Assembly: GCA_964016885.1 (NCBI GenBank)
Contig: OZ024753.1
Location: 7,378,001-7,442,000, forward strand
Length of the DNA: 64,000 bases
Source: Eledone cirrhosa
Taxonomy: Eukaryota
Direction of reading: 5' to 3'
The notes beneath the pieces are model-generated. The model searched no databases, was not told the origin of the DNA, and saw nothing but the letters and a program-made list of their open reading frames with translations. Below are positions 6,400 to 7,045 of the stretch, piece by piece (position 1 is the stretch's first letter; each line of letters begins with the position of its first letter). A program made the translations under genes and the position numbers.

Positions 6400-7045
6400 T
6401 GGAAAAAAATGAAACGAAATTTCATTTCTTACTCTTAGTACGGCTGTTACTTAAATATAAGTATGTATACGTACATACGTATGTACACAGACGTACAGTA
6501 GTATGTATATATATATATATACATACATGCACACGTATATATATGTACGTATGGGTTTACCGAACATTTATTATAATGCTCGGTTTGTTTGTAAACATAT
6601 ATGTATGTACGTATACATACTGATATTTAAGTAACAGCCGTACTAAGAGTGAGAAATGACATTTCGTTTCATTTTTTCTAATTATCGTTTTCGGTGCGCC
6701 GGACCGACTAACTCACTCGATATGCAAATTAGGCTGCTCAGCCGTTAATATGCATAAGGAAAGTATATACTTTCAGACGTTCAACCATCTGGCAGGAAGG
6801 TATACGATGCTGACGATAGCTAATAAGCTTGAAACTAGTACATCGTTCCTTTGTCAGTGTTGAACAAAAGGGCAACGATGGTTGCTAAACACTGTACGGC
6901 TTAATTCGGGATGTTTATTTACAAACAAACCGAAAATTATAATAAATGTTCGGTAAACCCATACGTACATATATATATGTGTGCATGTATGTATATATAT
7001 ACATACTAATGTACGTCTGTATACATATACGTATACATACTTATA
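6400..7045 (+). mobile_element. F1 element: inverted tail (6400-6595) followed by head-to-tail sense unit
   Basis: 6400-6595 is the reverse complement of sequences at 6596-6678 and 6918-7045; flanked by (TA)n. Confidence 0.75.
6804..6846 (+). ncRNA. Minimal type I hammerhead ribozyme (F1)
   Basis: acgatg-CTGACGA-tagctaataagctt-GAAA-ctag-TA-catcgt; perfect 6-bp stem I. Confidence 0.85.

What the first reader, a model, noticed from the sequence alone, without database searches (positions are those of the whole stretch)
6596..7045. F1 is an about 440-nt head-to-tail monomer with one hammerhead: candidate retrozyme/circular RNA
Seen: the 3' tail (...gtactaagag.gagaaatga.atttcgtttcattttttc) is followed directly by the sequence leading into the ribozyme, both at about 6680 and, on the minus strand, at about 322. 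The unit is therefore tandem or circularly permuted. Tail to ribozyme is about 175 nt and ribozyme to tail about 260 nt (45085-45346). No ORF. Established: non-LTR retrozymes are short tandem hammerhead repeats that give circRNAs in several invertebrates. Inference: this is a cephalopod equivalent.
Basis: partly seen in the sequence, partly recalled or inferred. Interest (0 to 1): 0.7.

Follow-up and report, generated by a model that had tools for sequence, protein, structure and literature searches.

The report
Hammerhead retrozyme with Penelope insertion scars
This is one arm of an insertion of a roughly 425-base, protein-free repeat that carries a predicted self-cutting RNA motif and has over 10,000 copies in this genome; it is a known kind of element (a retrozyme), its insertion ends indicate it was likely pasted in by Penelope-type jumping-gene enzymes, and whether its RNA is a circle is untested.

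Summary
Observation confirmed; interpretation partly supported. F1 is a non-coding unit (median 428 nt) with a type I hammerhead. Its exact 32-nt core occurs 10,051 times, the tail-head junction 3,037 times, and arrays reach at least 20 kb. The interval 6596-7045 is not a free monomer: it is the inverted arm of a two-armed insertion (6395-7046) in a (TA)n tract. Insertions have two fixed outer ends about 56 nt apart in the unit (2,888 and 3,766 exact matches), variable 5' ends and head-to-head arms, the published signature of Penelope-like elements (PLEs). A Hydra-type PLE with intact ORFs has the same target and a similar end, and one insertion is a PLE-F1 chimera. Copies run through the cleavage site without extra stops, so the template was likely a circle or an uncut multimer. 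Helix III is one pair plus a palindromic loop, the amphibian dimer-dependent type. Cleavage, expression and circularity were not tested; no RNA run was listed. The proposed junction-read test cannot tell circle from precursor. This scan noted the same kind of element before on other DNA, including this genome. New member of a known kind.

The parts
6395..6595 (-). Main arm of the insertion (unit positions about 233-422). Its outer end is the family's fixed end A (tail, into (TA)n at about 6397).
6592..7046 (+). Inverted arm, the reported 'monomer': unit 329-422 followed by unit 1-363. Its outer end is the family's fixed end B.
6626..6685 (+). About 56-60-nt tail between end B and end A, with a predicted hairpin at about 6651-6678. 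In two-armed insertions it is the outer end of one arm only.
6685..6686 (+). Tail-head junction (unit 422|1)
6789..6857 (+). Predicted type I hammerhead: 6-bp stem I with bulge and distal helix; CUGACGA 6810-6816; stem II with a U.U at its base; GAAA 6831-6834; helix III is one pair plus palindromic CUAG loop; predicted cut after 6840.
7040..7046 (+). End B (unit about 360-366), followed by AT-rich simple repeat
6366..6397 (.). (TA)n target tract flanking end A
1..475 (-). Second F1 insertion: minus arm from about 431 through tail, head and hammerhead (predicted cut after 170) and past the window start, where it ends inside the tail at (TA)n. Short plus-strand head piece at 432-475.
45056..45397 (+). 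Third F1 insertion, 5'-truncated (unit 90-422), mutated hammerhead core, end A into (TA)35
43906..45069 (+). 26-nt minisatellite, 45 copies, made of the 5' junction of the third copy plus (TA)n

Best explanation
F1 is a non-coding, hammerhead-bearing tandem repeat family (a non-LTR retrozyme) with fixed two-ended, head-to-head insertions in (TA)n tracts, likely made by the reverse transcriptase/GIY-YIG endonuclease of a Penelope-like element copying a likely circular monomer RNA. Steps: (1) Tandem copies would be transcribed by read-through (inferred; no promoter found). (2) Two hammerheads would pair through the palindromic helix III and cut the multimer into monomers of about 425 nt (predicted from structure and from the axolotl analogy). 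(3) A host ligase would close them into circles (inferred from PMC7229834). (4) A (TA)n-targeting PLE protein, with a Hydra-type family as candidate, would cut the target. The two DNA ends would prime on two U/A-rich unpaired sites flanking the tail hairpin, end A (unit 422) and end B (unit about 366). The ends are shown; the priming is inferred. (5) Each arm is copied for a variable length, across the cut site and often past one unit (shown in DNA), and the arms are joined head to head (shown). (6) Some insertions later expand at the DNA level into satellites (shown by higher-order repeats). Parts: PLE-type mobilisation about 0.9; ribozyme active, mainly as a dimer, about 0.7; circular rather than linear template about 0.55.
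For: Fixed ends: end A into (AT)n has 2,888 exact matches and end B into (AT)n 3,766; controls 0. Of 82 insertions picked by end A (85 found; L087, L090, L095 dropped as duplicates or array), 42 have an inverted 5' arm with at least 25 nt of unique sequence. 35 of these 42 end at unit 355-372 and 0 at 410-422. By pattern, 37 of 82 have an outward end B within 1.5 kb, against 3 of 82 on the same strand and 1 of 216 control windows. All 6 opposite-strand pairs under 1 kb among the first 100 listed core matches are divergent. 5' truncation, partial tandems, an inverted 5' copy, a tail at one end only and (TA)n targets are the described PLE anatomy (PMC8557442, PMC3846280; passages). An intact 808-aa PLE ORF with the Hydra motifs RWK, DKT and CxCX5C is present. 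It targets (TA)n and ends ...TTTCCTG-ATTTAT, similar to F1's ...TTTCC-RTTTAT. One insertion (L003/L173) has a Hydra-type PLE 3' end at one side and F1 end B at the other, fused without a spacer. Continuous template: 51 of 82 main arms run at least 20 nt past the cut site, and stops there are not enriched (7/67 vs 55/844, p=0.21); 28 of 82 cross the tail-head junction. Main-arm stops cluster at one unit length (20/52 vs 62/911, p=6e-10), spread over both sides of the junction (20 of 58 passes between -20 and +35). Arms of one insertion share subfamily alleles: 26/301 mismatches against 3,388/7,536 between insertions. Ribozyme: one stem I pair is U.G in 68, G.U in 25 and A-U in 14 of 116 copies (sample partly chosen on an exact core). 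82 of 113 tail-selected copies keep core and palindrome. Six real monomers fold as circles at z -3.7 to -9.8, 63-70% paired (15 shuffles each).
Against: No RNA evidence of any kind was obtained. Inverted arms do not stop at one turn from their own start (0 of 47 at unit 351-385); they stop near the unit head as well (12 of 24 at 1-35; 8 of 35). That also fits a linear RNA starting near the head, or a structural barrier there. 6 of 22 insertions with adjacent units in one arm have discordant neighbours, one at 15 of 16 sites, which a single monomeric circle cannot give. If both arms primed on one circle, many main arms of 56 nt or less would be expected; they are not enriched (7 of 113 at unit 351-385). 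F1 has no meaningful BLAST similarity to the ends of the candidate PLE, only one PLE clade was examined, and the chimera is n=1. The hammerhead has two weakening features, and its core is barely more conserved than the rest of the motif (2.3% vs 3.2% mismatches). The covariation is one column inherited by a few subfamilies. In Xenopus only 1 of 9 predicted retrozyme dimers cleaved (bioRxiv 10.64898/2026.07.22.740005). The fold z-scores are likely inflated by the unit's palindromic simple repeats.
Confidence: 0.55

Rival explanations
1. F1 is a non-autonomous PLE copied from linear RNA, either a unit-length transcript starting near the head or an uncut read-through multimer. Tandems come from template jumps or multimeric transcripts. 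The weak hammerhead cuts rarely, and circles, if any, are by-products.
For: Both arm types stop near the unit head. 6 of 22 adjacent-unit comparisons are discordant. The template must be uncut at the ribozyme site. Non-autonomous PLEs with multicopy head-to-tail insertions exist without canonical hammerheads (MRC1/Chlamys, PMC8557442 passages). A self-priming model for PLE inverted repeats needs no circle (PMC3846280 passage).
Against: Stops are spread from -23 to +33 across the junction, not at a sharp start. No promoter was identified; the host U1/U2 upstream motifs are not matched. Related retrozymes in coral, mussel and axolotl are largely circular in vivo (PMC7229834).
Confidence: 0.35
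2. F1 is only the pseudo-LTR or UTR of a longer coding PLE.
For: Same insertion anatomy as PLEs. One F1-PLE fusion. Xenopus retrozymes are homologous to PLE pLTRs. Only about 150 loci of more than 10,000 copies were examined.
Against: In the 82 insertions the sequence upstream of the tail is F1 itself, up to a variable truncation. The tail-head junction count (3,037) matches the end A count (2,888). Loci of the one PLE clade examined show no F1-like termini. In that PLE, and in the other hammerhead families of the window, the ribozyme lies about 55-65 nt from the 3' end, against about 267 nt in F1.
Confidence: 0.05
3. F1 is a satellite or a DNA-level mobile repeat (MITE- or Helitron-like), and the hammerhead is incidental.
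For: Arrays of at least 20 kb with a higher-order repeat (98% at 6,571 bp vs about 92% between monomers). An (AB)x5 array whose inner alternate units are identical while neighbours differ at 9-11 of 294 sites shows DNA-level amplification.
Against: Most copies are dispersed single or double units with fixed 3' ends, variable 5' truncation and asymmetric inverted arms, the pattern of target-primed reverse transcription. Stem I pair variants keep pairing.
Confidence: 0.05

Closest known systems
Metazoan non-LTR retrozymes (Cervera and de la Pena 2020, PMC7229834: passages plus sections 14, 15 and 17 read; Li, Clavereau and Pollet 2026, bioRxiv 10.64898/2026.07.22.740005: parts 1-3 of 5 read, supplements closed)
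   Same: Short (150-450 bp) low-GC non-coding tandem unit; one type I hammerhead per unit; dimers to large multimers; thousands of copies; highly self-paired predicted circle; co-occurs with PLEs.
   Different: Not reported for cephalopods in the passages read or searches run. Helix III is the amphibian weak type, whereas most invertebrate retrozymes are described as efficient monomers. The two fixed ends and inverted arms tie it to PLE integration by anatomy, where those papers argue from co-occurrence and pLTR homology. Cleavage and circRNA are shown there, not here.
Axolotl HHR_Amex1 and HHR_Amex2 / newt satellite 2 (PMC7229834 section 15 read)
   Same: Single-pair helix III capped by a palindromic tetraloop (Amex1) and U.U at the base of helix II (Amex2); dimer-dependent cleavage predicted for F1.
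   Different: F1 combines both weakening features in one ribozyme, in what is probably an invertebrate. The snRNA-type promoter recalled for newt satellite 2 (from memory; search did not retrieve the paper) was not found in F1.
EN+ Penelope-like elements, Hydra clade, and non-autonomous PLEs such as MRC1 (Craig et al. 2021, PMC8557442: passages and section 11 read; Arkhipova et al. 2013, PMC3846280: passages)
   Same: 5' truncation, partial tandems, inverted 5' arm, tail at one end only, (TA)n target, type I hammerhead.
   Different: No ORF. The tail is about 56 nt rather than 30-40. The hammerhead is mid-unit and not near the 3' end. No sequence homology to the ends of the PLE clade examined.

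Membership tests
non-LTR retrozyme | Tandem units of 150-450 bp, low GC, no ORF | tested here: met
   Median 427.5 nt; GC 35-38%; only low-complexity ORFs; arrays
non-LTR retrozyme | Type I hammerhead motif in each unit, at least two consecutive intact | tested here: met
   Motif and fold; consecutive intact copies in L095 and L096; 82 of 113 tail-selected copies intact. No Rfam model hit
non-LTR retrozyme | No LTR, PBS or PPT | tested here: inconclusive
   Ends are fixed internal sites joined to (TA)n and no LTR pair is seen; PBS and PPT were not searched
non-LTR retrozyme | Ribozyme self-cleaves | not testable with these tools
   Prediction only; the palindrome duplex is -4.8 to -6.8 kcal/mol
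non-LTR retrozyme | Expressed as linear and circular monomer RNA | not testable with these tools
   Only contigs of runs of unknown kind were available
non-LTR retrozyme | Large target-site duplications when present | tested here: inconclusive
   Both flanks are (TA)n, so a duplication cannot be read
PLE-mobilised non-autonomous element | Fixed 3' end, variable 5' truncation, partial tandems | tested here: met
PLE-mobilised non-autonomous element | Inverted 5' arm with tail at one end only | tested here: met
   35 of 42 inverted arms end at unit 355-372, none at 410-422
PLE-mobilised non-autonomous element | Autonomous PLE with the same target in the genome | tested here: met
   Intact 806-808-aa frames, Hydra motifs, (TA)n ends; no Pfam or PDB hit, so the clade call is by motif only
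PLE-mobilised non-autonomous element | Terminal sequence homology to the partner PLE | tested here: not met
   No meaningful BLAST similarity to the ends of the one clade examined; only a short terminal motif is alike; other PLE families not examined
autonomous PLE | RT plus GIY-YIG ORF inside the unit | tested here: not met
snRNA-promoter-driven satellite (newt satellite 2 type; feature recalled from memory) | Host snRNA proximal element within the unit | tested here: not met
   An octamer is present at 6722, but 10 host U1/U2 upstream regions have no octamer and their -80 to -40 stretches match F1 only in AT-rich simple sequence

The most novel reading that the evidence does not exclude
The thousands of F1 insertions are a genomic record of a Hydra-clade Penelope protein reverse-transcribing a ribozyme-made RNA circle from two fixed internal sites flanking a tail hairpin. 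They would give the missing link between animal retrozymes and PLEs, and a minimal 425-nt substrate that explains the unexplained PLE 'tail' and inverted arm. The ribozyme would be a dimer-only invertebrate hammerhead that lets monomer circles resist re-cutting.
Probability: 0.4. Interest if true: 0.7.

Novelty: new member of a known kind. Interest (0 to 1): 0.45.

Why it matters
The papers read propose that PLEs mobilise animal retrozymes, from co-occurrence and pLTR similarity, and describe the PLE transposition cycle (inverted arms, tail, microsatellite bias) as unresolved. F1 offers thousands of insertions with readable ends, an intact candidate partner and a short substrate, so both questions can be tested in vitro. 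A hammerhead that cuts only as a dimer would also answer how a monomer circle avoids re-cutting itself, a point left open in PMC7229834. As a repeat family it is otherwise ordinary, and this scan has noted the same kind of element several times already.

Tried and rejected
Rfam: no hammerhead hit in the locus; the best 150 of 400 whole-window hits were miRNA models, all below the gathering score, mostly on simple repeats. Sequencing runs: no RNA holder listed. Four of the six runs were laid as contigs of unknown kind; they show the family and its variants in run sets labelled organisms A, B and C, but say nothing on expression, and the B and C signals are too thin to use. snRNA-type promoter idea: rejected. 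A Pol III internal promoter was considered by eye only; A/B-box matches are poor and a T6 run would stop transcription before the junction. Enrichment of 5' ends at the cleavage site, expected for a cut linear monomer template: not found. Haplotype switches at the cleavage site: a few recombinants fall between unit 101 and 184, others elsewhere; not conclusive and not tested statistically. Long arrays as direct rolling-circle products: rejected, because higher-order repeats show later DNA amplification. Enrichment of F1 beside PLE fragments: 5 of 40 PLE loci carry F1, one of them the query locus; no formal background was computed, so it was not used. The first inverted-arm count (61 of 84) was inflated by simple-repeat matches and was replaced; under-displayed inverted arms because of a filter error. 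Pfam and PDB searches with the PLE protein gave nothing. A by-sequence look-up of earlier findings was empty. Literature searches for a cephalopod retrozyme and a term search in the 2026 Octopus vulgaris repeat annotation (PMC13282606, 0 hits for ribozyme or retrozyme) found none. Repbase, Dfam, subscription journals and these papers' supplements were not seen and may hold the family.

Full report
OBSERVATION. The window holds three F1 insertions: 1-475, 6395-7046 and 45056-45397. The tail-head junction is at 6685|6686 and at about 321-324 on the minus strand. The window is G000:C13:7378001-7442000 in a 3.0-Gb genome. The exact 32-nt ribozyme core occurs 10,051 times (control 0) and the exact tail-head junction pattern 3,037 times. 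Unit positions below are those of a real 422-nt monomer from L010: 1 is the first base of the head, 155|156 the predicted cut, 422 the end of the tail. Monomers measure 420-447 nt in 39 of 44 spacings. Only low-complexity ORFs overlap the locus.

THE RIBOZYME. The motif at 6789-6857 has CUGACGA, GAAA and a GUA cut site, a 6-bp stem I extended by a bulge and a distal helix, and a short stem II. Rfam has no model hit here. In 116 copies (one per locus plus three from the window; part of the sample was chosen on an exact core) stem positions mostly pair. One stem I position is U.G in 68, G.U in 25, A-U in 14 and U.U in 4, with one each of five other combinations. This is real but thin covariation: one column, a few subfamilies. 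The core is only slightly better kept than the rest of the motif (35/1,508 vs 205/6,380 mismatches). In the tail-selected sample 82 of 113 copies keep core and palindrome. Helix III can form only one pair around a palindromic CUAG loop, and stem II begins with U.U. PMC7229834 (section 15) describes these two features separately in the axolotl ribozymes, which cut poorly as monomers and well as dimers. Dimer-dependent cleavage of F1 is therefore predicted, not shown. Six real monomers folded as circles give z of -3.7 to -9.8 against 15 shuffles each, likely inflated by palindromic simple repeats.

INSERTION ANATOMY. In the first 30 loci plus the window, 43 of 73 tail hits ran into the head, 26 into a microsatellite, and 4 were off-target; overlapping loci were counted twice. 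The tail-to-(AT)n end (end A) has 2,888 exact matches. I took 87 of the first 100 listed end A places (30, 57 fetched; 85 end A sites were recovered) and kept 82 after dropping L087, L090 and L095. Their 5' ends are scattered. 42 of 82 carry an inverted 5' arm with unique sequence; 35 of the 42 end at unit 355-372 and none at 410-422. A separate pattern test gave 37 of 82, against 3 of 82 on the same strand and 1 of 216 control windows. This end B has 3,766 exact matches genome-wide. A typical two-armed insertion is therefore (TA)n, an inverted arm ending at about 366, a main arm ending at 422, then (TA)n, with a tail of about 56 nt on one side only. The reported interval 6596-7045 is such an inverted arm, and 6395-6595 is its partner. 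PMC8557442 and PMC3846280 (passages) list these features for Penelope-like elements: 5' truncation, partial tandems, inverted 5' copy, a 30-40-bp tail at one end, (TA)n bias.

PARTNER. A GIY-YIG fragment fused to F1 in L003 led to a PLE clade with frames of up to 808 aa (150 scored matches). The protein has RWK, DKT and CxCX5C, the Hydra-clade motifs; Pfam and PDB gave no hit. It inserts in (TA)n, forms partial tandems and inverted arms, and ends in a motif like F1's, but has no meaningful BLAST similarity to F1. In L003/L173 a PLE 3' part is joined without spacer to two F1 arms; one outer end is the PLE's, the other is F1 end B. A template switch in one insertion event is the simplest reading; a later deletion is not excluded, and n=1. 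Other PLE families were not examined.

WHAT THE TEMPLATE WAS. Main arms do not stop preferentially at the cut site (7/67 vs 55/844, p=0.21); 51 of 82 pass it and 28 of 82 pass the tail-head junction. The template was therefore likely continuous there: a circle or an uncut multimer, not a cut linear monomer. Stops cluster at about one unit length (20/52 vs 62/911), spread across the junction (20 of 58 same-strand passes between -20 and +35), as a one-turn stall on a circle would give. But inverted arms stall at the same place (12 of 24; 8 of 35) and not one turn from their own start (0 of 47), which a linear RNA beginning near the head, or a structural barrier, explains as well. The two arms of an insertion share subfamily alleles (26/301 mismatches; 23 of 26 insertions within 20%) far more than arms of different insertions (3,388/7,536; 173 of 650). 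Adjacent units agree in 16 of 22 insertions and disagree in 6, so some templates were mixed or RT switched. The DNA thus favours, but does not prove, a circle.

ARRAYS. C1:96,984,000-97,004,000 is a continuous array, about 47 units in the 20 kb fetched, with a higher-order repeat at 6,571 bp (98.3% vs about 92%). C1:51.77 Mb has at least 37 units. L095 is (AB)x5 plus an inverted arm; its inner alternate units are identical and neighbours differ at 9-11 of 294 sites. Long arrays therefore likely grew after insertion at the DNA level and are not evidence for rolling-circle copying.

RNA. No RNA run was available (see Tried and rejected).

COMPARISON AND VERDICT. It works like, and meets the DNA-level definition of, a metazoan non-LTR retrozyme (PMC7229834; bioRxiv 10.64898/2026.07.22.740005); the RNA-level criteria are untested. 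It also behaves as a non-autonomous PLE, and the 2026 preprint argues these are one thing. My searches found no cephalopod retrozyme in print; repeat databases and supplements were not seen. After I had fixed my reading, the scan's own notes showed 52 findings holding all my search words, in at least 4 genomes. The eight listed, three from this genome, reach essentially the same conclusion; they are not independent support. New member of a known kind; interest 0.45, with 0.4 probability for the stronger circle-plus-Hydra-PLE reading.

Noticed in passing
window 3340, 16379, 26001/26160, 37375, 38036/38279, 43048/43287, 57834: Ten further hammerhead-like motifs of about three other families, three as head-to-head inverted pairs, each about 55-65 nt from an end that often runs into (TA)n: PLE pseudo-LTR-type remains.
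   Followed up: partly
window 43906-45069: A 26-nt minisatellite (45 copies, 95% matches) born from the 5' junction of the third F1 copy and its (TA)n target.
   Followed up: partly
G000:C1:96984000-97004000 (L091, L092); C1:51771500-51788000 (L093, L094): F1 satellite arrays of about 47 and at least 37 units; the first has a higher-order repeat of about 16 units.
   Followed up: partly
L203-L212, e.g. G000:C3:347864500-347872500: Hydra-type PLE family with near-identical copies, frames up to 808 aa, a 3' UTR of about 870 nt and a hammerhead-like motif with a CCGAAGA core variant about 62 nt from the 3' end; no Pfam or PDB match.
   Followed up: partly
L195:2530-3150; L177:598; L182:174; L190:681: Other hammerhead families: a 310-nt tandem (three copies) and single motifs, some with different palindromic helix III sequences, suggesting several retrozyme families in this genome.
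   Followed up: no
L151-L172: Host U1 and U2 genes lie in tandem arrays and share upstream motifs (TCAGT-like at about -57, a TA-rich box at about -31, CCTCCCTT-like at about -260) without an octamer.
   Followed up: no
window 19686-21312 (minus strand); 15811-15967: Fragments of LINE-type reverse transcriptase ORFs; family labels not tested.
   Followed up: no
window about 7410-7500 and 45590-45700: The same other repeat follows F1 at two loci after a (TA)n tract, suggesting a shared target preference.
   Followed up: no
L064, L077, L106, L112, L135: In these insertions the two arms begin at nearly the same unit position (palindromic junction) although the arms differ in length; may bear on fold-back models of PLE integration.
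   Followed up: no
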